NCBI GenBank assembly: GCA_951406725.2
Contig: OX597838.1
Span: 42,966,001-43,030,000 of the forward strand
Length of the DNA: 64,000 bases
Origin: Octopus vulgaris
Taxonomy: Eukaryota
Direction: 5' to 3'
In this document: positions 14,601 to 64,000 of the stretch, piece by piece
Position numbering within the stretch: the first letter of the stretch is position 1
Layout of the letters: the number at the start of each line of letters is the position of its first letter
Made by a program: the position numbers and the translations under genes
Notes under the pieces: model-generated
Told to the model about the DNA's origin: nothing
The model's database searches: none
What the model saw: only the letters and a program-made list of their open reading frames with translations

Positions 14601-17600
14601 TACGAGAGGTCTTTGGCAAACGCTTCAAGAATGGGGGTTGTTTAGCCCCAGGATACGAGAGGTCTTTGGCAAGCGCTAGAGGAATGGGGGTTATTTAGCC
14701 CCAGGATACGAAAGGCCTTCGGCAAGCGCTTCAGGAGTGGGGGTTCTTTACCCTCAGGATACGAGAGGTCTTTGGCAAACGCTTCAAGAATGGGGGTTGT
14801 TTAGCCCCAGGATACGAGAGGTCTGTGGCAAGCGCTAGAGGAATGGGGGTTGTTTAGCCCCAGGATACGAAAGGCCTTCGGCAAGTGCTTGGGGAGTGGG
14901 GGTTCTTTAGCCTCAGGATACGAGAGGTCTTTGGCAAGCGCTAGAGGAATGGGGGTTGTTTAGCCCCAGGATACGAAAGGCCTTCGGCAAGTGCTTGAGG
15001 CATGGGGGTTGTTTAGCCTCAGGATACGAGAGGTCTTTGGCAAGCGCTAGAGGAATGGAGGTTGTTTAGCGCCAGGATACGAGAGGTCTTTGGCAAGCGC
15101 TAGAGGAATGGGGGTTGTTTAGCCCCAGGATACGAGAGGTCTTTGGCAAGTGCTTGAGGAGTGGGGGTTGTTTAGCCTCAGGTTACGAGAGGTCTTTGGC
15201 AAGTGCTAGAGGAATGGGGGTTGTTTAGCTCCAGAATACGAGAGGTCTTTGGCAAGTGCTAGAGGAATGGGAGTTGTTTAAGCACCAGGATACGAGGCCT
15301 TTGGCAAGCACTTGAGAAATGGGGGTTGTTTAGCCCCAGGATACGAGAGGTCTTTGGCAAGCACTTCAAGAATGGGGGTTGTTTAGCCCCAGGATACGAG
15401 AGGTCTTTGGCAAACGCTTCAAGAATGGGGGTTGTTTAGCCCCAGGATACGAGAGGTCTTTGGCAAGTGCTTCAAGAATGGGGGTTGTTTAAGCACCAGG
15501 ATACGAGAGTTCTTTGGCAAGCGCTAGAGGAATGGGGGTTGTTTAAGCACCAGGATATGAGAGGTCTTTGGCAAGCGCTTCAAGAATGGGGGTTGTTTAG
15601 CCCCAGGATACGAGAGGTCTTTGGCAAACGCTTCAAGAATGGGGGTTGTTTAGCCTCAGGATACGAGAGGTCTTTGGCAAGTGCTTCAAGAATGGGGGTT
15701 GCTTAGCCCCAGGATACGAGAGGTCTTTGGCAAGCGCTTGAGGAATGGGGGTTATTTAAGTATCAGGATACGAGAGGTCTTTGGCAAGCGCTTGAGGAAT
15801 GGGGGTTGTTTAGCCCCAGGATACGAGAGGCCTTTGGCAAGTGCTTGAGGAATGGGGGTTGTTTAGCCCCAGGATACGAGAGGCCTTTGGCAAGTGCTTG
15901 AGGAATGGGGGTTGTTTGGCCCCAGGATACGAGAGGTCTTTGGCAAGCGCTTGAGGAATGGGGGTTGTTTAGCCCCAGGATACGAGAGGTCTTTGGCAAG
16001 TGCTTGAGGAATGGGGGTTGTTTAGCCCCAGGATACGAGAGGTCTTTGGCAAGTGCTTCAAGAATGGGGGTTGTTTAGCCCCAGGATACGAGAGGTCTTT
16101 GGCAAGCACTTGAAGAATGGGGGTTGTTTAGCCCCAGGATACGAGAGGGGGTTGTTTAGCCCCAGGATACGAGAGGGGATTGTTTAGCCCCAGATTATGA
16201 GAGGTCTTTGGCAAACGCTTCAAGAATGGGGGTTGTTTAGCCCCAGGATACAAGAGGTCTTTGGCAAACACTTCAAGAATGGGGGTTGTTTAACCCCAGG
16301 ATACGAGTGGTTTTTGGCAAGCACTTCAAGAATGGGGGTTATTTAGCCCCAGGATACAAGAGGTCTTTGGCAAACGCTTCAAGAATGGGGGTTGTTTAAC
16401 CCCAGGATACGAGAGGTTTTTGGCAAGCACTTCAAGAATGGGGGTTATTTAGCCCCAGGATATGAGAGGTCGTTGGCAAACGCTAGAGGAATGGGGGTTG
16501 TTTAGCCCCAGGATACGAAAGGCCTTTGGCAAGCGCTAGAGGAATGGGGGTTGTTTAGCCCCAGGATATGAGAGGTCTTTGACAAACGCTTCAAGAATGG
16601 GGGTTGTTTAGCCCCAGGATACGAGAGGTCTTTGGCAAGCACTTCAAGAATGGGGTCATTTAGCCCCAGGATACGAGAGGCCTTTGGCAAGCGCTTGAGG
16701 AATGGGGATTCTTTGGCCCCAGAATACAAGAGGACTTTGGAAAGCGCTTGAGAAATATGGGTTGTTTAGCCCAAGGATATGAGAGGCCTTTGGCAAGCGC
16801 TTGAGAAATGGGGGTTGTTTCAGTACCAGGATACGAGAGGTCTTTCCCAAGAGCTTGAGGAATGGGGGTTCTTTGGCCCCAGAATACGAGAGGTCTTTGG
16901 CAAGCGCTAGAGGAATGGGGGTTGTTTAGCCCCAGGAGACGAGAGGCATTTGTGCAAGCGCTTCAGGAATGGGGGTTGTTTAAGCACCAGGATACGAGAG
17001 GCCTTTGGCAAGCAATGAGGAATGAGGGTTGTTTAAGCACCAGGATACGAGAGGTCTTTGGCAGGGACTAGAGGAATGGGGGTTGTTTAGCCCCAGAATA
17101 CGAAAGGCCTTTGGCAAGCGCTTGAGAAATAGGGTTTGTTTAAGCACCAGGATACGAGAGGCCTTTGGCAAGAGCTTGAGGAATGGGGGTTGTATAAGGA
17201 ACAGGATACGAGAGGTCTTTGGCAAGTGCTTAGGGATGGGGGTTGTTTATCCCCAGGATCCGAGAGGCCTTTGGCAAGCGCTTCAAGAATGGGGGTTGTT
17301 TAGCCCCATGATAGGAGAGGCCTTTGTCAAGCGCTTCAGGAATGGGGGTGGTTTAGCCCCAGGATACGGGAGGTCTTTTGCAAGCACTTGAAGAATGGGG
17401 GTTGTTAAAGCATCAGGATACGAAAGGTCTTTGGCAAGCGCTAGAGGAATGGGGGTTATTTAGCCCCAGGATACGAGAGGTCTATCGCAAGCGCTAGAGG
17501 AATGGGGGTTGTTTAAGCACCAGGATACGATAGGTCTTTGGCAAGCGCTTGAGGAATGGGGTTTGTTTAGCCCCAGGATACGAGAGGACTCTGGCAAACA

Positions 17601-20600
17601 CTTGAGGAATGGGGTTTGTTTAGCCGCAGGATACGAGAGGTCTTTGGCAAGCGCTTCAGGAATGGGGGTTGTTTAGCCCCAGGATACAAGAGGCCTTTGG
17701 CAAGCGCTTGAGGAATGGGGGTTGTTTAGCCCCAGGATACGAGAGGTCTTTGGCAAACGCTTCAAGAATGGGGGTTGTTTAAGCATCAGGATACGAGAGG
17801 CCTTTGGCAAGCGCTTGAGGAATGAGGGTTGTTTAAGTACCAGGATACGAGAGGCCTTTCACAAGCGCTTGAGGAATGGGGTTTGTTTAGCCCCAGGATA
17901 CGAGAGGACTCTGGCAAACACTTGAGGAATGGGGTTTGTTTAGCCGCAGGATACGAGAGGTTTTTGGCAAGCGCTTCAGGAATGGGGGTTGTTTAAGCAT
18001 CAGGATATGAGAGGCCTTTGGCAAACGCTTGAGGAATGGGGGTTGTTTAAGCATCAGGATATGAGACGCCTTTGGCAAACGCTTGAGGAATGGGGGTTGT
18101 TTAAGCACCAGGATACGAGAGGTCTTTGGCAAGCGCTTGAGGAATGGGGGTTGTTTAGCCCCAGGATACGAGAGGTCTTTGGCAAGCGCTTGAGGAATGG
18201 GGGTTGTTTAGCCCCAGGATACGAGAGGTCTTTGGCAAACACTTCAAGAATGGGGGTTGTTTAAGCATCAGGTTACGAGAGGCCTTTGGCAAGCGCTTGA
18301 GGAATGAGGGTTGTTTAAGCACCAGGATACGAAAGGCCTTTGGCAAGCAATGAGGAATGGGGTTTGTTTAAGCACCAGGATACGAGAGGTCTTTGGCAGG
18401 GACTAGAGGAATGGGGGTTGTTTAGCCCCAGGATACGAAAGGCCTTTGGCAAGCGCTTGAGAAATAGGGTTTGTTTAAGCACCAGGATACGAGAGGCCTT
18501 TGGCAAGAGCTTGAGGAATGGGGGTTGTTTAAGGAACAGGATACGAGAGGTCTTTGGCAAGTGCTTAGGGATGGGGGTTGTTTATCCCCAGGATCTGAGA
18601 GGCCCTTGGCAAGCGCTTCAAGAATGGGGGTTGTTTAGCCCCGTGATACGAGAGGCCTTTGTCAAGCGCTTCAGGAATGGGGGGGGTTTAGCCCCAGGAT
18701 ACGAGAGGCTTTTGTCAAGCGCTTGAGGAATGGGGGTTGTTAAAGCACCAGGATACGAAAGGTCTTTGGCAAGCGCTAGAGGAATGGGGGTTATTTAGCC
18801 CCAGGATACGAGAGGTCTTTGGCAAGCGCTAGAGGAATGGGGGTTGTTTAGCCCCAGGATACGAGAGGTCTTTGGCAGGGACTAGAGAAATGGGGGTTGT
18901 TTAGCCCCAGGATATGAAAGGCCTTTGGCAAGCGCTTGAGAAATAGGGTTTGTTTAAGCACCAGGATACGAGAGGCCTTTGGCAAGCGCTTGAGAAATGG
19001 GGGTTGTTTAAGGAACAGGATACGAGAGGTTTTTGGCAAGTGCTTAGGGATGGGGGTTGTTTATCCCCAGAATCCGAAAGGCCCTTGGCAAGCGCTTCAA
19101 GAATGGGGGTTGTTTAGCCCCATGATACGAGAGGTCTTTGGCAAGCGTTTGAGGAATGGGGGTTGTTTAGCCCCATGATACGAGAGGTCTTTCTCAAGCG
19201 CTTCAGGAATGGGGGTGGTTTAGCCCCAGGATACGCGAAGCCTTTGTCAAGCGCTTGAGGAATGGGGATTGTTTCAGAACCATGATACGGGATATCCTTT
19301 GCAAGCACTTGAAGAATGGGGGTTGTTCAGCCCCAGAATATGAGAGGCCTTTGGCAAGCGCTTGAGGAATGGGGGTTGTTTAGCCCCAGGATACAAGAGG
19401 TCTTTGGCAAGCGCTAGAGGAATGGGAGTTATTTAGCCCCAGGATACGAGAGGTCTTTGGCAAGCGCTAAAGGAATGGGGGTTTTTTAAGCACCAGGATA
19501 CGAGAGGTCTTTGCAAGCGCTTGAGGAATGGGGGTTGTTTAAGTACCAGGATACGAGAGGTCTTTCGCAAGCGCTTGAGGAATGGGGGTTGTTTAGCCCC
19601 AGGGTACGAGAGGCCTTTGGCAAGCGCTTGAGGAATGGGGGTTGTTTAGCCCCAGGGTACGAGAGGCCTTTGGCAAGCGCTTGAGGAATGGGGGTTGTTT
19701 AGCCCCAGGATACGAGAGGTCTTTGGCAAGCGCTTCAAGAATGGGGGTTGTTTAGCCCCAGGATACGAGAGGGGGTTGTTTAGCCCCAGATTATGAGAGG
19801 TCTTTGGCAAACGCTTCAAGAATGGGGGTTGTTTAGCCCCAGGATACAAGAGGTCTTTGGCAAACACTTCAAGAATGGGGGTTGTTTAACCCCAGGATAC
19901 GAGTGGTTTTTGGCAAGCACTTCAAGAATGGGGGTTATTTAGCCCCAGGATACAAGAGGTCTTTGGCAAACGCTTCAAGAATGGGGGTTGTTTACCCCAG
20001 GATACGAGAGGTTTTTGGCAAGCACTTCAAGAATGGGGGTTATTTAGCCCCAGGATATGAGAGGTCGTTGGCAAACGCTAGAGGAATGGGGGTTGTTTAG
20101 CCCCAGGATACGAAAGGCCTTTGGCAAGCGCTAGAGGAATGGGGGTTGTTTAGCCCCAGGATATGAGAGGTCTTTGACAAACGCTTCAAGAATGGGGGTT
20201 GTTTAGCCCCAGGATACGAGAGGTCTTTGGCAAGCACTTCAAGAATGGGGTCATTTAGCCCCAGGATACGAGAGGCCTTTGGCAAGCGCTTGAGGAATGG
20301 GGATTCTTTGGCCCAGAATACAAGAGGACTTTGGAAAGCGCTTGAGAAATATGGGTTGTTTAGCCCAAGGATATGAGAGGCCTTTGGCAAGCGCTTGAGA
20401 AATGGGGGTTGTTTCAGTACCAGGATACGAGAGGTCTTTCCCAAGAGCTTGAGGAATGGGGGTTCTTTGGCCCCAGAATACGAGAGGTCTTTGGCAAGCG
20501 CTAGAGGAATGGGGGTTGTTTAGCCCCAGGAGACGAGAGGCATTTGTGCAAGCGCTTCAGGAATGGGGGTTGTTTAAGCACCAGGATACGAGAGGCCTTT

Positions 20601-23600
20601 GGCAAGTAATGAGGAATGAGGGTTGTTTAAGCACCAGGATACGAGAGGTCTTTGGCAGGGACTAGAGGAATGGGGGTTGTTTAGCCCCAGAATACGAAAG
20701 GCCTTTGGCAAGCGCTTGAGAAATAGGGTTTGTTTAAGCACCAGGATACGAGAGGCCTTTGGCAAGAGCTTGAGGAATGGGGGTTGTATAAGGAACAGGA
20801 TACGAGAGGTCTTTGGCAAGTGCTTAGGGATGGGGGTTGTTTATCCCCAGGATCCGAGAGGCCTTTGGCAAGCGCTTCAAGAATGGGGGTTGTTTAGCCC
20901 CATGATAGGAGAGGCCTTTGTCAAGCGCTTCAGGAATGGGGGTGGTTTAGCCCCAGGATACGGGAGGTCTTTTGCAAGCACTTGAAGAATGGGGGTTGTT
21001 AAAGCATCAGGATACGAAAGGTCTTTGGCAAGCGCTAGAGGAATGAGGGTTATTTAGCCCCAGGATACGAGAGGTCTATCGCAAGCGCTAGAGGAATGGG
21101 GGTTGTTTAAGTACCAGGATACGAGAGGCCTTTCACAAGCGCTTGAGGAATGGGGTTTGTTTAGCCCCAGGATACGAGAGGACTCTGGCAAACACTTGAG
21201 GAATGGGGTTTGTTTAGCCGCAGGATACGAGAGGTCTTTGGCAAGCGCTTCAGGAATGGGGGTTGTTTAGCCCCAGGATACGAGAGGACTCTGGCAAACA
21301 CTTGAGGAATGGGGTTTGTTTAGCCGCAGGATACGAGAGGTTTTTGGCAAGCGCTTCAAGAATGGGGGTTGTTTAAGCATCAGGATACGAGAGGCCTTTG
21401 GCAAACGCTTGAGGAATGAGGGTTGTTTAAGTACCAGGATACGAGAGGCCTTTCACAAGCGCTTGAGGAATGGGGTTGTTTAGCCCCAGGATACGAGAGG
21501 ACTCTGGCAAACACTTGAGGAATGGGGTTTGTTTAGCCGCAGGATACGAGAGGTTTTTGGCAAGCGCTTCAGGAATGGGGGTTGTTTAAGCATCAGGATA
21601 TGAGACACCTTTGGCAAACGCTTGAGGAATGGGGGTTGTTTAAGCATCAGGATATGAGACGCCTTTGGCAAACGCTTGAGGAATGGGGGTTGTTTAAGCA
21701 CCAGGATACGAGAGGCCTTTGGCAAGCGCTTGAGGAATGGGGGTTGTTTAAGCACCAGGATACGAGAGGTCTTTGGCAGGGACTAGAGGAATGGGGGTTG
21801 TTTAGCCCCAGGATACAAGAGGCCTTTGGCAAGCGCTTGAGGAATGGGGGTTGTTTAGCCCCAGGATACGAGAGGTCTTTGGCAAACGCTTCAAGAATGG
21901 GGGTTGTTTAAGCATCAGGTTACGAGAGGCCTTTGGCAAGCGCTTGAGGAATGAGGGTCGTTTAAGCACCAGGATACGAAAGGCCTTTGGCAAGCAATGA
22001 GGAATGGGGTTTGTTTAAGCACTAGGATACGAGAGGTCTTTGGCAGGGACTAGAGGAATGGGGGTTGTTTAGCCCCAGGATACGAAAGGCCTTTGGCAAG
22101 CGCTTGAGAAATAGGGTTTGTTTAAGCACCAGGATACGAGAGGCCTTTGGCAAGAGCTTGAGGAATGGGGGTTGTTTAAGGAACAGAATACGAGAGGTCT
22201 TTGGCAAGTGCTTAGGGATGGGGGTTGTTTATCCCCAGGATCTGAGAGGCCCTTGGCAAGCGCTTCAAGAATGGGGGTTGTTTAGCCCCGTGATACGAGA
22301 GGCCTTTGTCAAGCGCTTCAGGAATGGGGGGGTTTAGCCCCAGGATACGAGAGGCCTTTGTCAAGCGCTTGAGGAATGGGGGTTGTTAAAGCACCAGGAT
22401 ACGAAAGGTCTTTGGCAAGCGCTAGAGGAATGGGGTTTATTTAGCCCCAGGATACGAGAGGTCTTTGGCAAGCGCTAGAGGAATGGGGGTTGTTTAAGCA
22501 CCAGGATACGATAGGTCTTTGGCAAGCGCTTGAGGAATGGGGGTTGTTTAGCCCCAGGATACGAGAGGTCTTTGGCAGGGACTAGAGAAATGGGGGTTGT
22601 TTAGCCCCAGGATATGAAAGGCCTTTGGCAAGCGCTTGAGAAATAGGGTTTGTTTAAGCACCAGGATACGAGAGGCCTTTGGCAAGCGCTTGAGGAATGG
22701 GGGTTGTTTAAGGAACAGGATACGAGAGGTTTTTGGCAAGTGCTTAGGGATGGGGGTTGTTTATCCCCAGAATCCGAAAGGCCCTTGGCAAGCGCTTCAA
22801 GAATGGGGGTTGTTTAGCCCCATGATACGAGAGGTCTTTGGCAAGCGTTTGAGGAATGGGGGTTGTTTAGCCCCATGATATGAGAGGTCTTTCTCAAGCG
22901 CTTCAGGAATGGGGGTGGTTTAGCCCCAGGATACGCGAAGCCTTTGTCAAGCGCTTGAGGAATGGGGATTGTTTCAGAACCATGATACGGGATATCCTTT
23001 GCAAGCACTTGAAGAATGGGGGTTGTTCAGCCCCAGAATATGAGAGGCCTTTGGCAAGCGCTTGAGGAATGGGGGTTGTTTAGCCCCAGGGTACGAGAGG
23101 CCTTTGGCAAGCGCTTGAGGAATGGGGGTTGTTTAGCCCCAGGATACGAGAGGTCTTTGGCAAGCGCTTGAGGAATGGGGGTTATTTAGCCCCAGGATAC
23201 GAAAGGCCTTCGGCAAGCGCTTCAGGAATGGGGGTTGTTTAGTACCAGGATACGAGAGGTCTTTCGCAAGCTCTTGAGGAATGGGGGTTGTTTAGCCCCG
23301 GGTACGAGAGGTCTTTGGCAAGCGCTAGAGGAATGGAGGTTGTTTAACCCCGGGATACGAAAGGCCTTTGGCAAGCGCTTCAGGAATAGGGGTTGTTTAG
23401 TAGCGGCATACGAGAAGTCTTTGGCAAGCGGTTGAGGAATGGAGGTTGTTTAAGCACCAGGATACGAGAGGTCTTTGGCAAGCGCTTGAGGAATGGGGGT
23501 TGATTAAGCACCAGGATACGAGAGGTCTTTGGCAAGCGTTTGAGGAATGGGGGTTGATTAAGCACCAGGATACGAGAGGTCTTTGGCAAGCGCTTGAGGA

Positions 23601-24801
23601 ATGGGGGTTGTTTAGCCCCAGGATACGAGAGGTCTTTGGCAAACGCTTCAAGAATGGGGGTTGATTAAGCACCAGGATACGAGAGGTCTTTGGCAAGCGC
23701 TTGAGGAATGGGGGTTGTTTAGCCCCAGGATACGAGAGGTCTTTGGCAAGCGTTTGAGGAATGGGGGTTGTTTAGCCCAAGTATACGAGAGGTCTTTGGC
23801 AAGCGCTTGAGAAATAGGGTTTGTTTAAGCACCAGGATACGAGAGGCCTTTGGCAAGAGCTTGAGGAATGGGGGTTGTTTAAGGAACAGGATACGAGAGG
23901 TCTTTGGCAAGTGCTTAGGGATGGGGGTTGTTTATATTACAGGATCCGAGAGGCCCTTGGCAAGCGCTTCAAGAATGGGGGTTGTTTAGCCCCATGATAT
24001 GAGAGGCCTTTGTCAAGCGCTTCAGGAATGGGGGTTGTTTAAGCATCGGGATACGAGAGGCCTTTGGCGAGCGCTTAAGGAATGGGGGTTGTTTAAGCAC
24101 CAGGATACGAAAGGCCTTTGGCAAGCGCTTGAGAAATAGGGTTTGTTTAAGCACTAGGATACGAGAGGCCTTTGGCAAGAGCTTGAGGAATGGGGGTTGT
24201 TTAAGGAACAGGATACGAGGGGTCTTTGGCAAGTGCTTAGGGATGGGGGTTGTTTATCCCAGAATCCGAGAGGCCCTTGGCAAGTGCTTCAAGAATGGGG
24301 GTTGTTTAGCCCCATGATACGAGAGGTCTTTGTCAAGCGCTTGAGGAATGGGGGTTGTTTCAGAACCATGATACGGGAGATCTTTTGCAAGCACTTGAAG
24401 AATGGGTGTTGTTTAGCCCCAGAATACGAGAGGCCTTTGGCAAGCGCTTGAGGAATGGGGGTTGTTTAGCCCCGGGATACGAGAGGTCTTTGGCAAGCGC
24501 TAGAGGAATGGGGGTTATTTAGCCCCAGGATACGAGAGGTCTTTGGCAAGCGCTTGAGGAATGGGGGTTGTTTAAGTACCAGGATACGAGAGGTCTTTGG
24601 CAAGCGTTTGAGGAATGGGGTTCGTTTAGCCCCAGGATACGAGAGGTCTTTGGCAAGCGCTAGAGGAATGGGGGTTGATTAAGCACCCGGATACGAGAGG
24701 TCTTTTGGCAAGCGCTTGAGGAATGGGGGTTGTTTAGCCCCAGGATACGAGAGGTCTTTGGCAAGCGGTTGAGGAATGGGGGTTGATTAAGCATCAGGAT
24801 A
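11681..24801. repeat. Satellite array, 53/54-bp monomer (consensus ~GAGGAATGGGGGTTGTTTAGCCCCAGGATACGAGAGGTCTTTGGCAAGCGCTT), roughly 245 copies with higher-order repeats
   Basis: Directly visible tandem monomers. Near-identical spurious ORFs at 12654/14034/15467 give periods of 1380 and 1433 bp; those at 16862/20456 and 18936/22636 give periods of ~3594-3700 bp. Confidence 0.98.
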
Positions 24802-27974: not shown

Positions 27975-28020
<46 letters not shown>

Positions 28021-28023
<3 letters not shown>

Positions 28024-29707
28024 AACCTGGATACCAAACCATTAATCATTAATTAATGAGGTTAACATTTTCATTAACAATTTCACTTTTAAGTTAACTT
28101 TGGAAATCATTACCAGACTAATTAACTTCCGTTAATCAGTTGTTATCAATAAACCATTAATGTTAATTTTTATTATAGAAAAATAACAAAAAATCAGTTT
28201 TTACTCTAAAACCACCATTAAAAAGTGCCAAAACTATAAAATCAGCCTTTTTAAAGGCTTTAGAATTCAAAAAACTATGGGTTTTTTTTTTTTTTCTTTA
28301 GAGTTAAAAAAGGCTGATTTTGTAGTTTTAACTTTTAAATGACCTAAAACAGGCTGATTTCATAGTTTTGGTCCCTTTTTAGGTTTTTAAAGGCTTTTAG
28401 AGACAGAAAAGGGTAAAAAGTTTGCAATGTTCAAGAGGTACACATGCTTTCTGGACCCAGTAAGGTCACAGCACTGTGACAGCAGATAGCATCTATGCTG
28501 GGATGGAGAGGAGGCTGGTTGTCCCCAGTACGACGAGATGGAGCTCAACACCATCCTGGAGACTAAGAGGCCTGTTCTCCACAGAGTCATGACCCAGTTG
28601 AAGGTCAACAGCTTCAACGACCAGGATTTCAACTTAATGAAGGAATATGTCAAGGTAAGAAATTAATAATAAAATAATATTATATTATATTAGTACAATA
28701 TATATGTATATATTATATATAATATATTTCAGACTCAAGGACTTGAAGTCCAAAGACCTCGTCTACTGCTACCCCTTGGTCAGCACACTTTTGGCAGGCA
28801 CTGATAAAAGATTTAGGACCCTCCTAGAGGATGCAGAATGCCAGCTGGCTGCTGCCTTCCACCCCAGGTTTCGCTTCATCTGGTTTGGATAAGTACAACA
28901 GCACCAAGGTCGCCAATGTGAGGAAAAGCATGGAGGGTAAGGTTGAGGAGGAGGCAGCGAAGAGGAGGAAGATGGCTTCTTCAGTGATGTCACCAAAAGA
29001 GAGCAGCATGAGTCAGAGGTCACTCGAGGACAAGGCCCAGAATTTGGTCAAGACCTGGTTGGAGACCATCTCAAAGGTCTTGCTGACAGATGCTGCCTTC
29101 TTGGGTGAGCAAGTGTTGGTGGACTTTATTCATCAAGTGCAACATAGCCATCCCCTCCAGTGGAGTGTTCCCTTGAGGGCCAAGGGATCATCTCTGTCTG
29201 ATGAAAACTTTGACATGCTAATTTTCATGAAGGGCAACATGCATCTCATGAACAAAATGTAGAACAAGAGGAGGAAAAATCAAGTTATGTATATATTGTG
29301 TTTTTCCTCTTTTTAATCTTTATTTTTTTATGGCCACTTTATCAATAAACTTTTTTAGTTTAATACTAATATTATTTCATTTGAGTTTTTCTTTTACCCT
29401 TTTCTGGCTCTAAAAGCCCTTAAAATCCTTTAAAAAGAGGCCAAAACTATGAAATCAGCTTTTTTAGGTTTTTAAAAGTTAAAGCTATTAAGTTAAAATT
29501 TTTTAAAACTCTAAAGCAAAAAAAAAAAAAAAAAAAAAGTTTTGGGGTTCTAAAAGGCTAATTTTATAGTTTCAAAGGGGTTTTTTGGTGGTTTTAGAGC
29601 AAAAACTGATATTTTTTTTTTCTATAATAAAAATTAATGTTAACGGTTTATCAATAACTTCCATTACATTTTCAAAGAATTAACTAATTAACGGTGCCCA
29701 CCTTTGT
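28021..29707 (+). mobile_element. Internally deleted hAT-superfamily DNA transposon
   Basis: Transposase remnants RRLVVPSTTRWSS (~28510-28550), LAAAFHPRFR (~28845) and LRAKGSSLSDENFDMLIFMKGN (dimerisation domain, ~29175-29240). Imperfect termini (CAAACCTGGATA vs reverse-complemented CAAAGGTGGGCA) and long inverted subterminal regions (~28150-28330 vs ~29440-29660). Flanked by TA-rich sequence. Confidence 0.85.
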
Positions 29708-30169
29708 ATATATTATTTGTATACATATCGACTTCAAAGCTCCACGCTGGGAAATGGTATGATTTTAATATATTGAGCTTCTGGCCTCTTCTCGGGGCCC
29801 TGTTCTTTCCTCTTCCCTTCATTTAATTTATTTTACACATTTGTATTCACTCTGATGAAGCTCCATGTACTGGATCAAATGTCCTATGAAGATGATGAAT
29901 ATTATTTTCGAAATTCTTTTGTAAGCATTGACTGACATTGGAAGTGGAAACGGCTGCAAGAAATCTTATGTCCTGCTTTAAAGAATATTCTACAGATGGG
30001 GTCCAAATGGTTTGTTTGTTCATCAAAAGTTTTTTCTATTTTCTGATTATTTAATATATATATATATATACTGGAGTAAACACATAAATGTGAAACAAGG
30101 TGGAAAAAAGAGTACTCAAATACCAGAGGTAGAGTATTATGCTTTATTTAAAAGCAGCAGAAATTTAAC

Positions 30170-30216
30170 AAAAGCTGTTACTCGGAGTTTCACGTTCCTG
30201 TTCGTCAGACAGTTTT
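30170..30216 (-). ncRNA. Minimal type I hammerhead ribozyme motif
   Basis: Minus strand AAAACUGU-CUGACGA-AC(AGGAAC)GU-GAAAC UCCGA GUA/ACAGCUUUU. Stem I is CUGU/ACAG, the core is intact, and stem III is a near-palindromic minimal stem. Confidence 0.72.
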
Positions 30217-30589
30217 GAACTGTAACAGCTTTTGTTAAATTTCTGCTGCTTTTAAATAAAGTATATATATATATATATATATATATGCATACAGGATGTC
30301 ACCAACTGTGTAAACAACATGAAATACATATACAAACACGTTAAATGTATGTATCTCATGTTATTTACAGTTGGTGACGTCCTGTATCCATATATGCACA
30401 CACACAAGTATATATTATTTAATTGAATGCCACGCATCCAAGTAATTTCATATATAGATATACACTAGCAGAATTGCCCGGCGTTGCTCGGGGCTGAATT
30501 GCTTGAAAGTACTGTTAATGATTGCACTGAATTATGATGATTATTCAGGCAAATATTGATATAAGTTTACGGTGGGAGATAAGGACTTA

Positions 30590-31085
30590 ACGATCAAACG
30601 TGTGCCATTGCATTGTTTTGGGGGAACCAAATTTCTGATGAGCATTATAGGGGCACCAACTTTAAGTTTGAGAAAGTGTGGTGGTAGTCAGGGGTGCTCA
30701 AAGGAATTGAGTACCTCTATTGGATAGTTGATGACGTCCTCTGGGTCAGGAGTTGTATCGATAGACTGATATACATAGACTTCCCCAGGAATGAGTTTTA
30801 GCATTTCATCATTAATATGGTGAACAGTTTTATTCCTCAGGGCCAGTATAGCCTTTTTGCCAATCCAATCCATATTCTGATAATTAGCTTGTAGATCTGG
30901 GAACACTGCATCTCTGAGATCAGAAGGCGTCTTAACAATGGTACAAATGGAATCGATGGCAATATTACCATTTTCATCCCCTGGTATTTTGCCTTCGCCA
31001 AGTGCAAGGAGGGTGTGAGGAAATGCTGCTGATGTGATATTACATTGCATATAAGCACGCATATTGGTGTGAAGTTTGAGAGTTA
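30590..31085 (-). pseudogene. Helitron RepHel Pif1-helicase fragment
   Basis: NMRAY...LLALGEG...VFPDL...KAILALRNKTVHHIN...YQSIDT...[41 protein letters not shown] are canonical Helitron helicase motifs, with an in-frame stop. Confidence 0.9.
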
Positions 31086-31308
31086 CTTCCGTTTATTTTA
31101 AAAAATATGCATTAAAATGGAAAAAAATGATGGTAAATTATTTGTAAAATCATAGACTCATCGTAGACGCGTGCTAATACCCAGAAGGGCTCGATATGAA
31201 TCACGACTATAAGATACCCGGTTTTGGTTAAACTGCATCGCAAAAGTGGGAGTAGTTAGGAATCTAAATCGGAGTAGACAGACACACAACCTTTCTTTTA
31301 TATATAAA

Positions 31309-31795
31309 TATTTTCGTCCTAAAAAACTTTGTATGGATTGAATGGTTACCTCTATGGAAATATATACACGCACATTATACATACATGTGTGTATAGATGA
31401 ATATATAAATACATTTAAATATCTATATACACTTTTGGGCGATCTTTCTGTTTCTTAGAGATAACTTTAGATCTTATTTTCGTCCTAAAAAACTTTGTAT
31501 GGAGTGAATGGTTACCTCTATGGAAATATATACACACACGTTATACATACATGTGTGCATAGATGAATATATAAATACATTTATATATCTATATACACTT
31601 TTGGGCGATCTCTGTGCTACTTAGAGATAACTTTAGATCTTATTTTCGTCCTAAAAAACTTTGTGCGGAGTGAATGGTTACGTGTATGGAAATATATACA
31701 CACACATTATACATACATCTGTGTATAGATGAATATATAAATACATTTAAATATCTATATACACTTTTGGGCGATCTTTCTGCTACTTGGATATA
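31309..31795. repeat. 166-bp tandem repeat (~3 copies) inside the Helitron
   Basis: tattttcgtcctaaaaaactttgt recurs at 31309, 31475 and 31641. Confidence 0.92.
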
Positions 31796-32725
31796 GGGGC
31801 GATGTTTCGCTTGTTGTAGCACACGTTTCCGTCGATTTCCGTAAAAAATGTAAACACTGAATCGGCCATACATACATACATACATACATACACACACACA
31901 TACACACACACACACACATACATGCATACATACATATACACATAAACCGAGTAAAAAATTTCAGTTATCTCTCTCTTTCACACATTACTCTCTGTCTCTT
32001 CACACACACTAACAGAAGCACTTCACTTACACAACATACTGTCTGTTTCCCACACTCCATCAAACACACACACACACACACACATGTACATCAATGCGTC
32101 CCATGCACGGTAACTTCAAAAGAACTTCCCTCGTCATACAATCGCTTTCTCTTAGTCTCTTTCGCTCTCATTACTTATGTAAAAAAATAAAAGTTTTTAC
32201 GGAAATCGACGGAAGCCTGTGCTACGACAAGCGAAACATCGCCGATATAGGTCTTATATTCATCCTAAAATACTTTCCTGTCACACACTCACGCACACGC
32301 ACGCACACATGCACACACACACACACACGCACCCTCACACACACACACATGCACACACACACTCACACACACGCACGTTAGCTTACAATTTTATTTATAT
32401 ATTTGCGTGTCTATGTGTGTAAAGAGGAAGTGGCAGACTGAAAGAGTCACTCACTACAAAAGGTGAATTACTTTCATTTTATTTGTTGCACACTGTGTGT
32501 GTGCGTGTGGTGTAAACCACATTAAGAAAAGCATTTGACATACACACCAGAATGTGAGTTTTCTGTAAATTTTGCTTAATTGGAGTTTAAATTTTAAAAA
32601 GTGGACCTGGCAAAACCCGATGCATTCTACTCTTAAAAATGCTAAGTAAATTGTAATTGAAGAAATCCTATATTGTAGATTTCTATAACTGACAAAGGGA
32701 GGCAGATAAAATCTGCCTTTTATAA

Positions 32726-33911
32726 TCTCTTATTATAAAAAGCAGATTTTATCTGCCTCCCTTTGTCAGTTATAGAAATCTACAATATAGGATTTCTTCA
32801 ATTACAATTTACCTAGCATTTTTAAGAGTAGAATGCATCGGGTTTTGCCAGGTCCAGTTTTTAAAATTTAAACTCCAATTAAGCAAAATTTACAGAAAAC
32901 TCACATTCTGGTGTGTATGTCAAATGCTTTTCTTAGTCTGGTTTACAGCACACGCAAACGCACACACACAGTGTGCAACGAATAAAGTGAAACTAGATGT
33001 AATATTTGTTTCTGTCTATCACGCTGATAGATACATGAGTAAAATGTATGGCAAGCTAACAGATAAGAGTGAGTGAAAATGTTCTTGGAAGAGAGTAAAT
33101 AGCGACAGAGTGATTTGAGGAAGACTAAACTGAAACAGTGTTTATGTATGAAACAGTGTTTATGTATAAACAGACGACACTTATATAAACCCTTTCGTTA
33201 CCAAACCGCCCGAATTTACCTATTCATATTTAAATGAGAATATCAGAGTAAATCTCTTTAGTACATTCGTGAAAACACGTATTATACTTCGTAAACACTT
33301 CAAATACAGTTTTGTACAAAAATCGAAGTGTAATTTTAATTCCATGAATTATGGGAGATTTTTTTCCGAAATTTGTTCCTATTGTGTTTTCAAAATTTGT
33401 AATTCTGACAAAAAATGGATACGAATTTCATTATATCAAGCAGCGAGTCAGAATTCGAAGGATTTTCTACTGAAGACCTTCATAAATCTAACTCTATGAC
33501 TGAAAAAAAAAAGCATCTTTATATAAGAGTGAAGTTGTGTGTCTGTCTCCTACGATTTAGATTCGTAACTACTCCCACATTTTGCGGTGCAGTTTAACCA
33601 AAAGCGGGTATCTTATAGTCGTGATTCATATCGAGCCCTTCTGGGTATTAGCGCACGTCTACGATGAGTCTACGATTTTTAAAAAATTTACCATCATATT
33701 TTTCCATTTTAATGCATTTTTTCGCTTTTATATAAGGGAAGTAACTCTCTAAAAATATCTACGATGTGTCAACGATTTAAAAAAAAATTTACCTTAATTT
33801 TTTTTCAATTTTTAATGCATTTTTTTTGCTATTTTTTTGGCTATAACTCTCTAAAAATGCTTATATAGTTATTTCCCTTACAACCCGAGCAACGCCGGGC
33901 GATACTGCTAG
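32726..33911 (+). mobile_element. Non-autonomous composite Helitron nested in inverted orientation
   Basis: Starts A|TCTCTTATTATAAAAAGCAG and ends CCCGAGCAACGCCGGGCGATACTG-CTAG|T. Inserted between A and T with no TSD. The first ~250 bp is the reverse complement of ~32480-32725. Confidence 0.88.
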
Positions 33912-34281
33912 TAAGAGATACACACACGCATATGTATACGACAGCCTTCTTTCGGTTTCCGCCTGCCAAAAAGTTTTAGTCAACCCAAGGCTATAGTAGA
34001 AGACACTTGCCCAAATTTCCTCACAGTGGGACTGAACCTGGGACTGAGTGACAGGGAAGCAAACTTCTTACCACACATCCACGCCTGCCCCTACCTCTGT
34101 ACTCCATCCGTTTTAGATTGCATTCTAAATAAATACAGAAGTTCGTTCATAAAACCTTTCACTTCAACCTCGGATGGAGGTGTGCAAGTGCACACTTCAT
34201 GTACAATTGAAAGATTTGTCGATACGTGGTATTTTGTTATACAAACACAATATACCATAAAGTATATTAAATGTTTTAAAA

Positions 34282-34600
34282 AGTCAATCGTACGTTCTGT
34301 TGCGCTAGCAACGCTTTTTCATTATTTTCTACAGACATTCCATTAGAAATTGTAGCCAGCACTGATTTTGCTGCATCGTTTCGTATCGAGACATCAGATG
34401 TAAACAAACAATGAGATAAAAAACAAAGTGAGTAATTTTTATGCAGTTTTGTCCTCGATATCTCGTTGTTTGTTTCTATCTGACGTCTCGATACGAAACG
34501 TTGCAGCAAAAATCAGTGCTGGCTTCAATGATTTCCATAGAATAATATCTGTGGAAATTAACCTGAACGAAAGTATTAAACGTACAAACGAATCGACTCT
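34282..34600. repeat. Imperfect foldback / MITE-like inverted repeat
   Basis: Arms of ~95 bp (agccagcactgattttgctgcatcgtttcgtatcgagacatcagat vs atctgacgtctcgatacgaaacgttgcagcaaaaatcagtgctggct) around a ~40-nt spacer, with weaker outer pairing. Confidence 0.8.
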
Positions 34601-34833
34601 TGCCACCAGCACCACCGTTCATGGCTGGGTTCTTGTTGCATTCAAGATAACACAAACCCCGACAGCCTCCCCACCACCACCACCACCACCAACTATGTTA
34701 TCTCATTTAACTAAGAGGTCATCCAGTCGATCCTCCTCTTCGCCACAACGCGCGGCAACACTCTCATTTTCCTCTCTTGATTATTGTACCGCCACCACCA
34801 CCACTACTACTACGACTACTACTGCTGCAGCTG

Positions 34834-34864
<31 letters not shown>

Positions 34865-35112
34865 AGCTGTTGCTGTTTTCTCTGTCACCACTACTGCTCT
34901 GTCTGTGCGTGTGTGTGTAAACTTGGCTATGAGCTGGAAGTCTAGCAGTGTGGTTGATAAGTTTGTTTCCGACCAACACGGCTTCAAGTTCAGTCCCGTT
35001 GCATGGCACCTTAAGCATGGGTCTTCTACTGTGACCCCCAGGTTGGCCAAAGTCCTGTGAGTGAATTTGGTGGGTGGAAACTGAAAGAAGCCCATTATTC
35101 ATACACGCACAA

Positions 35113-35149
<37 letters not shown>

Positions 35150-35187
35150 CACATATCCATATACATATACATATATATATATGCATA

Positions 35188-35221
<34 letters not shown>

Positions 35222-35350
35222 GGTCCCGGGTTGAGTCGGGGTTAACCACAGTAAATAAGGTACTCTATACATAGCAGAGTGAATTAATTTATTTTATAGA
35301 AGGAGCTTCTACAGGACTAGAACTGTTTCATTCAAAAGAAATCATCAGGA

Positions 35351-35401
35351 AGCTTCCTGATGATTTCTTTTGAATGAAACAGTTCTAGTCCTGTAGAAGC
35401 T
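35351..35401 (+). ncRNA. Type I hammerhead ribozyme motif (identical copy on the minus strand at 35354-35304)
   Basis: AGCUUC-CUGAUGA-U[UUC UUUU GAA]U-GAAAC AG(UUCUAGUC)CU-GUA/GAAGCU. It has a 6-bp stem I, a conserved core, a short stem II with a U-U at its base, a stem III, and a GUA cleavage triplet at 35393-35395. Confidence 0.75.
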
Positions 35402-35412
35402 CCTTCTATAAA

Positions 35413-35454
<42 letters not shown>

Positions 35455-36439
35455 TTGACTGCAGCTCGTATCTGATCATTGGGTTTGTCAGTCTTCTTCT
35501 CAACTGATTCTTGTGACTGAATGTGACTTTGGAATCTAAGTCGGTGGTAAAAGAGTCGTGGGCAGAATTCACACAAGATGGTTGGTGAGGGTCGTGGATG
35601 TTTGGATGTTAAGACGCTCCTTTCTTCTTCTGCGTTTTACCTCCTCATTCTGTTGTCTGTTCTGCTTGAAGGAGAGCTGGCTCCATTGTGGACAGCAGTG
35701 CTCCAGGCTCTCTTATCCAACTTGTCCCCATGAGAATGGCTGCATGCTAGTTGGAGCCAGGGTCCATATGTATGGTGGGCTTCTTTCAGTTTATGTCACA
35801 AAGCTATGGTTCCCCCAGGGTCTACAGTAGAAGACACTCATTTGCCCAAGGTGCCCTGCAGTGGAACTGAACTCCAAACCATGCGATTTGGAAGCAAACT
35901 TCTTAACAACATACTTATCACTGCACATATGTATCTGTGTGAGTCTGTGTGTGTGTGTGTACATATGTGTGAGTGTGTGTATGTGTACGTATGTGTGAAT
36001 GTATGTGTGTTTATGTGTACGTATGTATGAGTATGTTTATGTATGTATGTGAGAGTGTATGTATATGTGTAAGTGTGTATTTATGTATGTATGCGTGTGT
36101 ATATGAAACACTCTGAAATGTTTGTATTGGAGTTTCCAGTGTAAATGCCAAGCAGTACAGTATGTCGTTTCCAAACTTCTAGCAGAGTGAATTGTGTCAT
36201 CATGCTGTTTTTCTCAAAGACGGTGCCCAACTGACCCTACAATACTCTGTGGTAGGCAAAATCAAAAACAAACAATGCCCATGGGTGAAATTAAAAATAT
36301 GAAATGGCAACAATTTACCTATTGTGTGAATGTGTATGTATGTATGTAACTGCATGTGTGTATATGTATGTGTATATATATGCGAGTGTGTGTATATATA
36401 TGAGTGTATGCATGTACATAGCTTTTTATTTTTAATCTT

Positions 36440-36793
36440 TTGACTTGCTTCAGTCATTAGACTGCAACCAAAGTTTTTCTGTTGAACGAATTGACCCCAG
36501 GACTTATTTTTGGGGGGTAAAGCCTTGTACTTATTCTATTGTTCACTTTTTGCCAAACTGCTAAGTTTCAGGGATGTAAACACACTAACATTGGTTGTCA
36601 AGCAGTGGTGGGGGACAAAGACACACACACACACGCAGACATGATAGGCTTTCAGTTTCCATCTACCAAATCCACTCAAGGCTTTGGTTGGTTTGAGGTT
36701 ATAATAGAAGAAACTTGCCCAAGGTGCCATGTAGTGGGACTGAACTTGGAACCATGTGGTTGGGAAGCAAACTTCTTACCACACAGCCACACT
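36440..36793 (-). mobile_element. tRNA-derived SINE (same family as 61198-61585)
   Basis: Reverse complement of the family head (cttaccacacagccacac) through the 3' tail. Confidence 0.82.
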
Positions 36794-38524
36794 TGTTAAC
36801 TTCTGGAAAATCTTTTGGTTTTGTTTATTGATCTGTGAATATATTTGAATGATAAGAGGAGGAAATTGTCAAGTTGTCAAGGTAGGTAGCTGGGTATCTA
36901 GGAGACAGAAAGCCATAAAGTAATATCTTAAGACATGTTGTTAGAAGGAAAAAGCTAAAATATTTTCTCTTCCTGATAAAAGGCTTGACTTGAAATATTG
37001 AAGTAGAAAAAGGTGTGTTGCTGTAGTTTGTTCAGGATGTAAAGGAGGGTTTGTTGTAGTGCCATAGCTTTCTGGGTAGGGTACACTGTGTATATTAAAG
37101 ACCCTTTCAGTGACAGTGTTTAGGAGTGCTTCGAATATAATATACCTGCCTACTATGACTTGGTATAACACCTGAAGTGAATGAAGTTAAGTGTCAGTAA
37201 TTCTAGGTGTGACACAGTATTCTTCTACACAAGATTCCACCTACCTTTATCCAAATGTTGCATTTTTCGCTCCCTTCTCTATCAAAAGGCCCTTATGATG
37301 GCCACAGCAGTAAAGGCAAATGCAGACACTAAAATGCAACAGTTGTTTGACAGTTTACAACCCAACACAAAACCTCAGACAAGCAACACTAATGATGCTG
37401 GATCTATTTCCAAGTCAGGTAAATATCTTCCCATGTCTGGACTTGGTGATTATTCTTACGATGACCATTATTCTGGTGAAATGGCAGCAGAGTTTACAGT
37501 AGATGTTTCAGGTTCATTAAACTTACAGAGTGAGTTGAAGCTTGTTACAGCAATTAAATAAATACACCCTTTAGATGTTAAGGTGGTGTATCAGTGCATT
37601 ATAGCTGCTCCCTACAGGTGAAGTGTAGCTGGCCCCAACAAAAATAGTTTATTGCATAGGTAGTCTATAGTCAACCCCTTCAGGCATTGCTAGTTGGCCC
37701 CTATACAGTTTTCTTGTCAGTCAGTTGGCAACAGCCACTAAATCTCTTCCAATTTCAATTCCTGTCAGGTAATATTGACAATAGTGTTGTGATTCCAACC
37801 AAATGTGTTTTCGCAAAAATTCCAAGATTGGCAGGTCTCAAAAGAATAATCAATATGAACAAGGTGACGTTTGAAGGGAGGGGCAGGCAATCCAAGAGGT
37901 TGCTAGTGTTGGAAGCATTAACTTAGGATATTGAGCCAGACATTTGGAGCAGGAGACTTGGTCCATATCTTGACAACAAAATTATCTCTGTTAAGGTTAT
38001 CACCACATTTGTATTCACAGTCAAAGATCCCATCCATGTCACTCACCTTTGAAATTATTCATTTTACTATAAAATGAAAGAAAAGAATACACCAAATTTT
38101 CTTAATGAAACATGCTTTTTTATTGCTGATTGTTTGTTTTAGAATTTTTACATTTTTTACAAATTTTTTCTTCTTCCATAATTGTTGAATGGGTGAGATG
38201 ATGTTTCATCGGAGCAATTAGATTTTATGACCAGAGTTATTTTTAAGGAAAACTTGGCCTCCACATAAAGGATGACAAAACCGAGACGAAAATGCATGGC
38301 ATAGCAGACCTGTCCAACCCATGTTAAACTGGAATCATTCAAATGATGATGATGATGATGATAATGATGATGATGGTGGTGGTGGTGGTGAGGAGGAGGA
38401 GAAGGAGGAAGAGAACAATGGTGGTAATGATGATGGTGATGATGATGATGATGATGGTAATGAGATCCTATCCTACCACTAAATGTTCAATTCAGTTCTT
38501 AACTTCACAGCCACTGGACTTTCT

Positions 38525-45828: not shown

Positions 45829-47310
45829 TCATCATAAACATTGTTTAACGTCCGTTTTCGTTGCTAGCATAGGCTGGATGGTTTGACCAGGGTCTGGGAA
45901 GCCAGGGGGCTGCACCAGGCTCCAGTCTGATCTGGCAGTGTTTCTACAGTTGGATGCCCTTCCTAATGCCAACCACTTCATGAGTGTAATGGGTGCTTTT
46001 TACGTGCCACCAAACCAGGGGCCAGAGGAGGCTGTCAATGGCCACAATCGGTTCGTGATTTTTACGTGCCGGTATGGGTATCACAACTACTATTTCCATT
46101 TGATATTTATTTTGATATTGATGTACTTTACTTAATAGGTCTCCTCAAGCACAGCAGGTCACCCTATGATCCAAGGTACTTTTGAATGGGCTGGGGCTGT
46201 TTATACGAAACTGGTGTAGGATACAGCCGTGAACTCACTTTATTTGCCAGGTTGTCGCAGTCACAGCAGATCTCCAGAGGTCTCGATCTTTTGTCATTGC
46301 CTCTGTGAGGCCCAACGTTTGAAGATCATGCTTGACCACCTCATCCCATGTCTTCCTGGGTCTACCTCTACTCTGGATTCCTCCAACTGTTTGGGAGTGG
46401 CACTTTCTCACACATCTCTCCTCATCTATCCATAGTACATGACCATACCATCGCAAACGTCTCTCTTGCACACTACATCCGATGCTTCTTATGTCCAACA
46501 TTTTTCTCAGGGTGCTTACACTCTGTCATGTGTGCACACTGACATTACACTTTCAGTGAATCATGCTAGCTTCATTTCTTTCAAGCCTACGCATGTCCTC
46601 CACAGTCACGGCCCATGTTTCACTACCGTGAAGCATGGCAGTTCGCACCCATGCATCGTACAATCTACCTTTCACTCTGAATGAGAGACCCTTTGCCGCC
46701 AGTAGGAGAAGAAGCTTCCTAAACTTTGCCCAGGCTATTCTTATTCTAGTGGTGACACTCTCTGAGCATCCACCCCCGCTACTAACTTGGTCACCTAGGT
46801 AGCAGAAACTATCTACTACTTCTAGTTTCTTCGCCTGGAGTGTGATGGAATCTATTTTCTGAGCATCTGTGGTGTCTATTGCCCCTGTGCATCTGCTGCA
46901 CATGAAAGCCATCTTCCCAGTTAATCTTCTTTTGACATTGCTGCACCTCTTATGTGTCCATAGCTTACACTGGGTACATCTTATGGAGTTTCTACCTATA
47001 CCTTTTCTGTAGATCGAGCAGGGCCACCTACCTGATATGTGATGTGTTCACCTTCCTACTTACTAAAACTTAGGTCTTTGCTACATTGACTCTAAGACCT
47101 TTTGATTCTAAGCCTTGCTTCCACACCTGAAATTTCTTTTCTAGTTCTGGTAGTGATTCCGCTATGAGGGCATCAGCATAAAGGAGCCTCCAGGGGCAAC
47201 CCGTCTTGAATTGCTCTGTTATTGCCTGGAGGACTATGATGAATAAAAGGGGGCTGAGGGATGAACCTTGGTGGACCCCTACTTCTACATGGAACTCTTC
47301 ACTATACTCA
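45828..47310 (-). mobile_element. RTE-clade LINE fragment (3' half), decayed
   Basis: Clearly homologous to 8915-10530. ORFs 46553..46912 and 46235..46501 carry the C-terminal RT motifs; 3' UTR present. Confidence 0.93.
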
Positions 47311-47411
47311 TTATATATATATATGTATACCTACATACACACACACACACACACATATATATATACACATATACCTATATATATATATATGTATACATAC
47401 ATATATATGTA

Positions 47412-47447
<36 letters not shown>

Positions 47448-47615
47448 TACATACATGCATACATATATATATACATACATACATATATACATAAATACAT
47501 ACATATTTTTTTAGATATATATATATAATTGAAATTTACAAAAAACAAAAGATGAAGACAGGTGTATAAACAACAAACAGGTGTATTAGTTTAATGCTCA
47601 GGAAAGTGAGGAAGT

Positions 47616-47651
47616 CTTTTACATTTCAAGCCTACGCTCTTCAACAGAAAG
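47616..47651 (-). ncRNA. Variant minimal hammerhead-like motif within a short insertion (~47525-47730) flanked by (TA)n
   Basis: Minus strand CUUU-CUGUUGA-A-GAGC(GUAG)GCUU-GAAA-UG-UA/AAAG. Stems I and II are intact, but the core has U in place of the conserved A6. Confidence 0.55.
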
Positions 47652-47747
47652 GAACACGAAAAAATATACAGAGAGAGAATTAAAAAAAGAAAGCTTTAGT
47701 AGCTAGCAGTCAATCACCACACATTTTATATAAATATATATATATAT

Positions 47748-48140: not shown

Positions 48141-48169
48141 GGTTGGCAAGGATATACACATATATATAT

Positions 48170-63925: not shown

Positions 63926-64000
63926 TTTATTATTTCCTAATAATATTTAACCATCAAAATATAATAGGGTCTTTTTTATACATCGAATGGCTACAGGGGT

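What the first reader, a model, noticed from the sequence alone, without database searches (positions are those of the whole stretch)
30465..33918. Helitron inserted in reverse orientation into the first 7 nt of a sister Helitron, creating a ~500-bp palindrome
Seen: deleting 32726-33911 rejoins ...gccttttataa + taagaga, whose reverse complement TCTCTTATTATAAAAGGC is the same 5' terminus as that of the inserted element. Both elements obey A|TC...CTAG|T and share the 3' hairpin. The result is ~250-bp inverted arms around 32726-32731, plus a second inverted pair (~31080-31300 vs ~33515-33760). Inference: RepHel may target its own 5' terminus (self-targeting or local hopping), producing head-to-head composites that could seed hairpin RNAs or instability.
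Basis: partly seen in the sequence, partly recalled or inferred. Interest (0 to 1): 0.7.

Follow-up and report, generated by a model that had tools for sequence, protein, structure and literature searches.

The report
Helitron jumped backwards into sister's start
One rolling-circle transposon (a Helitron) sits backwards seven bases inside the start of a related one and makes a 500-base palindrome; it is a real, tidy case of the known habit of these elements to land in each other, likely because the sites they prefer look like their own starts.

Summary
Observation confirmed. A 1,186-bp Helitron (+, 32726-33911) sits at an A|T site after nt 7 of a 2,268-bp sister on the minus strand; their shared 5' ends make a 527-bp palindrome. 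The host carries a RepHel helicase remnant (Helraiser hit, E 4e-21). A short-read contig matches the right junction at single-copy depth. The family has roughly thousands of copies. Recurrence at nt 7/8 could not be tested: no genome is held.

In 66 distinct Helitron 3' flanks from other eukaryotes, ATA at +7..+9 occurs 28 times against 1.8% of AT sites, so targets resemble Helitron 5' ends. Here the host's own TA|T junction supplies that box, which makes nt 7/8 the best reverse site in the first 30 nt; head-to-tail at nt 0 scores four times higher. Local hopping is not supported; hairpin RNA is untested.

Self-insertion of Helitrons, also in opposite orientation, is in print (maize, Fusarium, silkworm), and this scan noted similar nests on other DNA. 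Open: both copies share a rare 5' haplotype over nt 1-210. New member of a known kind; interest 0.3.

The parts
32726..33911 (+). Inner non-autonomous Helitron, 1,186 bp, A|TC ... hairpin CTAG|T, no target duplication
33912..33918 (-). First 7 nt of the host Helitron, cut off by the insertion; preceded by A at 33919 on the minus strand
   Evidence: junction contig 33893-33998 in run X2
30465..32725 (-). Rest of the host Helitron (nt 8-2268), ends CTAG|T
32469..32995 (.). Palindrome made of the two 5' modules; loop 32727-32731; 3 differences in nt 1-210, 10 in nt 211-270
31075..31304 (-). Shared internal module in the host, inverted against 33520-33752 (88.5%)
33516..33911 (+). Second, internal 5'-type end (A|TCTTTATATAAG) and 3' part of the inner element; about 10 times the contig depth of the middle part, likely a more abundant short family, so the inner element is itself a two-5'-end composite
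30565..31083 (-). Remnant of the RepHel helicase (Pif1-type) coding region in the host, one internal stop
   Evidence: Pif1_2B, E 4.2e-13; Helraiser 7LCC residues 1216-1378, E 4.4e-21, only hit
33884..33899 (+). 3' hairpin of the inner element
30477..30492 (-). 3' hairpin of the host element
33918..33920 (+). ATA at +7..+9 of the inner element's 3' flank; it is the reverse complement of the host's own 5' junction
31309..32249 (.). Cargo inside the host: three 166-bp tandem units (31309-31795) and a 56-bp inverted pair (31792-31847, 32194-32249) around CA/TA microsatellites

Best explanation
Two members of one high-copy Helitron group are nested in opposite orientation, and the inner one most likely arrived second by an ordinary RepHel insertion at an A|T site that the enzyme's target preference likely favours. 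Steps: (1) shown: the host is a deletion derivative of an autonomous Helitron, and the inner element obeys the insertion rule exactly; (2) shown in other eukaryotes: Helitron targets carry T-N5-ATA(AA) 3' of the cut, the same shape as a Helitron 5' end; (3) shown for this site: an offset of 7 nt on the opposite strand puts the host's own TA|T junction into that ATA box; (4) inferred: RepHel supplied in trans reads targets with the surface that reads its left end, so 5' ends attract sister copies, mostly head-to-tail at nt 0 and sometimes reversed at nt 7/8; (5) the palindrome is a by-product of shared 5' ends and has no shown function.
For: Clean A|TC and CTAG|T at both elements and an exact rebuild of the host end. 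Helicase remnant hits only Helraiser in the PDB. ATA at +7..+9 in 28 of 66 distinct foreign 3' flanks against 171 of 9,593 AT sites of the window, 24-fold; ATAA/TATA starting at +5..+9 in 41 of 66 against 81 of 1,260 control sites, in 12 of 23 of the largest family and 29 of 43 others. With a profile from 64 flanks (two head-to-tail loci left out), nt 7/8 is the best opposite-strand site among the five AT offsets in the first 30 nt (mean weight 1.85; others 1.26, 0.15, 0.48, 0.02) and nt 0 in the same orientation weighs 7.5. Head-to-tail joins seen at L041 and L026/L048. In print: Helitrons insert near or inside other Helitrons (PMC3288121, PMC12477314, passages); self-insertion, also in opposite orientation, and one copy 2 bp from another (PMC5148889, section 16 and passages); AT-rich preference strongest 3' of the insertion (PMC4778049, passages).
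Against: The actual site is mediocre on the whole profile: 75th to 83rd percentile of AT sites, weight 0.74, rank 20 of 50 site-orientation pairs in the host's first 270 nt. The profile comes from other organisms, not from this family. Profile plus copy number predicts only about 0.03-0.09 exact events per genome for 5,000 copies, about 1e-6 per 64-kb window, so the motif alone hardly explains the sighting and a further clustering tendency has to be assumed. Host and inner agree at 9 of 9 listed polymorphic sites in nt 1-210, including a pair carried by 0-15% of contig depth, and differ at 4 of 4 compared sites in nt 211-270; independent draws from the family would not often do that.
Confidence: 0.6

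Rival explanations
1. True hot spot at an activated left end: when RepHel nicks and peels the top strand of a 5' end, the bottom strand of the first nucleotides is briefly single-stranded, and an incoming circle of a co-active sister is joined to it at the first good A|T, giving reverse insertions at nt 7/8.
For: The target strand here is the bottom strand of the host's left end. HUH cleavage needs ssDNA (PMC4778049, section 15). Low chance expectation. Shared rare 5' haplotype fits co-active copies. Unchecked scan notes report insertions in the first 5-12 nt in other genomes (leads only).
Against: One event. 0 of 66 foreign 3' ends in this geometry. The ordinary target motif already singles out nt 7/8 among reverse sites. 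The junction contig has single-copy depth.
Confidence: 0.2
2. Pure chance: a random AT-site insertion in a genome with thousands of copies, picked out by a very large scan.
For: About 3,500-7,000 copies of the 5' module by a rough depth ratio (the tool warns that summed depth is no copy number) give about 0.6 reverse insertions somewhere in the first 270 nt per genome at 5,000 copies. The window holds other inverted repeat nests.
Against: About 1e-6 per window for the exact site; published clustering of Helitrons; shared rare haplotype.
Confidence: 0.1
3. Local origin or later conversion: the first 210 nt of the inner element were copied from the host (fold-back or template switch during transposition), or the arms were homogenised by gene conversion after a normal insertion.
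For: 3 differences in nt 1-210 against 10 in nt 211-270 (Fisher p 4e-5); agreement at 9 of 9 proximal and 0 of 4 distal polymorphic sites.
Against: Beyond nt 270 the two elements are unrelated except for the 88.5% module and the last 28 nt, so the inner is not a copy of the host. The arms are not identical. Helraiser shows no local hopping (PMC4778049). Shared young subfamily explains the agreement too. Conversion would explain the arm identity but not the insertion.
Confidence: 0.08
4. Assembly artefact (fold-back chimera).
For: The centre junction was not among the pieces shown; palindromes are a known artefact class (own knowledge).
Against: Arms differ at 13 places, the four distal differences checked are family variants, the interiors differ, the missing 7 nt reappear 1,186 bp away, and a short-read contig matches that junction.
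Confidence: 0.02

Closest known systems
Self-inserted and composite Helitrons of Fusarium oxysporum (FoHeli; PMC5148889, section 16 and passages read)
   Same: Helitron inside Helitron; several 5' ends with one 3' end; opposite-orientation nesting drawn as a model (their Fig. 8); one FoHeli4 inserted 2 bp from another.
   Different: FoHelis are non-canonical with asymmetric inverted termini; here both are canonical TC...CTAG elements and the opposite-orientation intermediate is present intact with its full central palindrome.
Nested and adjacent maize Helitrons (PMC3288121, PMC2267711; passages read; Yang and Bennetzen 2009 seen only as cited there and in PMC12477314)
   Same: Preference to insert near or inside other Helitrons; multiple termini; insertion at the A|T made by a sister's 5' junction offered as one model.
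   Different: The maize adjacent pair is head-to-tail and dissimilar; this one is head-to-head, 7 nt inside, with 94% identical 5' ends.
Silkworm chimeric Helitron BmHel-9 (PMC3789558; passages read)
   Same: Forward and reverse segments of two Helitrons joined in one unit.
   Different: BmHel-9 is an amplified family; this composite is seen once and is not shown to have moved as a unit.
Helraiser / canonical HLE1 (PMC4778049, PMC11417382; passages and one section read; PDB 7LCC)
   Same: Termini, hairpin, A|T insertion, helicase sequence, AT-rich target 3' of the cut.
   Different: Both elements here are non-autonomous; Helraiser showed no local hopping; self-insertion was not among the passages read.

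Membership tests
Canonical Helitron (HLE1), non-autonomous | 5' TC terminus | tested here: met
   both elements
Canonical Helitron (HLE1), non-autonomous | 3' CTRR terminus with a short hairpin upstream | tested here: met
   CTAG and the same 16-nt hairpin 8 nt upstream; fold weak on its own; the same end is followed by T in 77 of 80 non-GC-rich foreign loci
Canonical Helitron (HLE1), non-autonomous | Insertion between A and T without target duplication | tested here: met
   both elements; the inner site is checked by the rebuilt host end
Canonical Helitron (HLE1), non-autonomous | Relationship to RepHel coding sequence | tested here: met
   host only: Pif1_2B and Helraiser hits; the one inner frame scanned (33170-33496) had no Pfam hit
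Canonical Helitron (HLE1), non-autonomous | Dispersed multi-copy family | tested here: met
   59,279, 45,425 and 25,864 contigs laid in three runs (the count includes a SINE piece in the flank)
Canonical Helitron (HLE1), non-autonomous | Orthologous empty site in another individual or species | tested here: inconclusive
   no such joint among the 15 shown of 97
Canonical Helitron (HLE1), non-autonomous | Autonomous partner with the same termini | not testable with these tools
   no genome held
HLE2 (Helitron2/Helentron, DINE-1) | Subterminal inverted repeats and T|T insertion | tested here: not met
   outer ends are TC...CTAG at A|T; only the internal cargo 31309-32249 has an inverted pair and minisatellite
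Site-specific self-targeting element | Recurrent independent insertions at the same nucleotide of sister copies | tested here: inconclusive
   own genome not searchable; tables truncated; 0 of 66 in foreign loci

The most novel reading that the evidence does not exclude
RepHel picks targets with the same surface that reads its left end, and the bottom strand of a left end that is being peeled is a built-in hot spot, so co-active Helitrons insert backwards at nt 7/8 of each other again and again; this would be a steady source of 500-bp palindromes, hairpin RNA templates and, after loss of the centre, composites with 3' ends at both sides.
Probability: 0.2. Interest if true: 0.6.

Novelty: new member of a known kind. 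Interest (0 to 1): 0.3.

Why it matters
As one event it is a clean, intact example of the opposite-orientation intermediate that was drawn as a model for composite Helitrons. The more useful by-product is a simple, testable rule: Helitron targets carry T-N5-ATA 3' of the cut and so mimic the left end, which predicts where self-insertions fall (nt 0 same strand first, nt 7/8 opposite strand next). How RepHel chooses targets is still little known; I did not find this mimicry stated in searches, but most subscription papers, the Helraiser structure paper among them, are not held, so it may be in print.

Tried and rejected
Whole-genome recurrence test: no genome is held. The family's 5' end is absent from the metagenome collection (0 hits), so own-genome copies could not be fetched. 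The hairpin pattern gave 0 hits in viral contigs and 4 in prokaryote genomes (3 dropped as GC-rich). Raw-read run X21 laid only 11 reads and says nothing. The joint and loose-end tables showed 15 of 97 and 19 of 970 rows; none concerned the two junctions or an empty site. The depth just right of 33911 and the start point of the junction contig cannot separate a second junction copy from chance sharing or an allele. Before counting flanks I dropped 30 of 96 loci: 16 GC-rich by eye, 3 not followed by T, 11 with duplicate flanks. L057 has outward-facing 3' ends 412 bp apart and looks like a collapsed head-to-head pair, but it is tied to a 450-bp repeat shared with other loci, so I did not count it. 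Rfam: no match in 28000-37000. RNA runs and small RNA were not examined. A look-up of earlier findings by sequence gave one unrelated bacterial window. Rejected: local hopping from a donor in the window; inner element as a copy of the host; HLE2 identity; artefact. PMC6927752 and PMC13286980 (passages) held nothing on self-insertion. No supplements were read; target-site tables in them could bear on the motif claim.

Full report
Observation. An element of 1,186 bp runs on the plus strand from A|TCTCTTATTATAAAA at 32726 to CTAG|T at 33911. Taking it out rejoins 33918-33912 with 32725-30465 on the minus strand into an element of 2,268 bp that starts after an A, has the same 5' end (one difference in the first 65 nt) and ends CTAG|T at 30465. 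The two share 270 columns at the 5' end (94.4%), an internal module of 235 nt (88.5%) and the last 28 nt (92.9%); nothing else, and there is no third copy in the 64 kb. The arms are 233 nt at 97% around a 5-nt loop. The common 16-nt hairpin occurs twice in the window against 0.06 expected.

What they are. The host holds a helicase remnant at 31083-30565 that matches Pfam Pif1_2B (E 4.2e-13) and, as the only PDB hit, the Helraiser transposase (E 4.4e-21). It is a deletion derivative of an autonomous canonical Helitron. The inner element has a second 5'-type end at 33516, and summed contig depth from there on is 10 to 17 times that of its middle, so it is likely a composite of a 5' part and a more abundant short family. 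The genome is an animal's, rich in LINEs and microsatellites; that its SINE looks like those of octopuses is recalled, not tested.

Is it real and how common is the family? No genome is held. Of 24 runs listed I laid four on 32670-34289. Run X2 has a 106-nt contig over 33893-33998 with no difference, at 0.81 of the depth of the unique flank: the right junction exists in short reads at about single copy, though with 19 nt on its left it misses the tool's 31-nt rule, and X2 may be the source animal. The centre junction was not among the 24 pieces shown. Three contig runs laid 59,279, 45,425 and 25,864 records. Summed depth over flank depth, divided by an assumed overlap factor of 2-4, gives about 3,500-7,000 copies of the 5' module in X1 and X2; the tool warns that this is no copy number, so it is an order of magnitude only. 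The raw-read run laid 11 reads and is uninformative. Recurrence in this genome stays untested.

Why nt 7/8? I fetched 96 loci with this type of 3' end from other organisms and kept 66 after dropping 16 GC-rich ones, 3 not followed by T and 11 duplicates. Their 3' flanks are strongly patterned: A at +7 in 43, T at +8 in 42, A at +9 in 40; ATA at +7..+9 together in 28 of 66 against 171 of 9,593 AT sites of the window. This is the shape of Helitron 5' ends (TC, a few bases, TATA). The inner element's flank has ATA at exactly +7..+9, and these three bases are the reverse complement of the host's own 5' junction. An offset of 7 on the opposite strand is the placement that does this. With a profile from 64 flanks, nt 7/8 is the best opposite-strand site in the first 30 nt when averaged over flanks (weight 1.85), while nt 0 in the same orientation weighs 7.5. 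Against this: the actual site scores only at the 75th-83rd percentile and ranks 20 of 50 in the first 270 nt, and the profile is from other organisms. Among the 66 foreign ends, 2 are followed directly by a Helitron-type 5' end (L041, L026/L048), which may also be rolling-circle tandems, and none shows the reverse geometry (many loci were too short to see the 5' side).

Chance. With 0.153 AT site-orientations per base and 2.72 Gb (the size of X2's contigs, used as a stand-in), 5,000 copies give 0.03-0.09 exact events and 0.6 reverse insertions anywhere in the first 270 nt per genome, or about 1e-6 per window for the exact site. One event per genome is not far from chance, but meeting it in a given window is, which favours some clustering beyond the motif. 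That tendency is in print: Helitrons insert near or inside other Helitrons in maize (PMC3288121 and PMC12477314, passages; the primary paper is not held); adjacent pairs arose by consecutive insertion (PMC2267711, passages); Fusarium has nested copies, one 2 bp from another, and a model of opposite-orientation self-insertion (PMC5148889, passages and section 16); silkworm BmHel-9 joins forward and reverse segments (PMC3789558, passages). Helraiser prefers AT-rich DNA 3' of the cut and shows no local hopping (PMC4778049, passages and section 15). HLE1 and HLE2 definitions are from PMC11417382 (passages); AT-rich 3' flanks in rice, and no flank consensus in 35 maize elements, from PMC2575219 (passages). 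Earlier notes of this scan describe similar nests in other genomes; they are unchecked leads.

Unexplained. The arms differ at 3 places in nt 1-210 and at 10 in nt 211-270. At the 9 polymorphic positions listed for nt 1-210, host and inner agree at all 9, including nt 119-120, where the window's letters hold 0-15% of depth; at 4 positions compared in nt 211-270 they differ, and the host carries the listed family variant each time (one more row fell in a gap and was left out; 48 rows were not shown). A young shared subfamily, arm-to-arm conversion or co-activity at an activated left end could each give this.

Verdict. Real nested insertion of two canonical non-autonomous Helitrons; the palindrome follows from shared 5' ends. 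Most likely (0.6) an ordinary trans insertion guided by a left-end-like target preference within the known self-insertion tendency; a true reverse hot spot at nt 7/8 has 0.2. Local hopping is unsupported and hairpin RNA untested. New member of a known kind, interest 0.3.

Noticed in passing
window 35287-35418: Perfect 132-bp palindrome (66-nt arms, 100%, no loop) at the end of a ~200-bp insert between two (TA)n runs, 1.4 kb from the finding.
   Followed up: no
window 31309-32249: Cargo in the host Helitron: three 166-bp units, a 56-bp inverted pair and CA microsatellites; Helentron/HINE-like by layout. Xenopus Heli2Xen arrays also have a 166-bp unit (PMC12001565, passage); sequences not compared.
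   Followed up: partly
window 11678-24801: 13-kb satellite of a 53-bp unit with higher-order periods and strong G skew.
   Followed up: no
window 46393-50769: Interleaved inverted copies (78-92%) of LINE-type pieces with RT and PHD hits; another inverted nest in the same window.
   Followed up: no
window 61653-63926 (-) and 9945-10826 (-): Reverse transcriptase frames of 757 and 293 aa.
   Followed up: partly
L055 1-580, L057 1569-2528, L072 1450-1971, L005, L049, L061: In one eukaryote's contigs, 6 of 23 Helitron loci lie at or near a shared ~450-bp repeat with inverted ends; L055 has Helitron 5' modules pointing away on both sides of it, and L057 has outward-facing 3' ends 412 bp apart.
   Followed up: partly
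L059 2079-2156 and 2529-2606 (oriented to the 3' end): The 78 nt after the Helitron's CTAG repeat 450 nt upstream at 92%, inside a 138-nt inverted pair.
   Followed up: no
L096 (genome contigs, a Rubritalea MAG): A contig of a bacterial MAG carries a eukaryote-type Helitron 3' end of the same family as L026, L048 and L071; likely host DNA in the bin.
   Followed up: no
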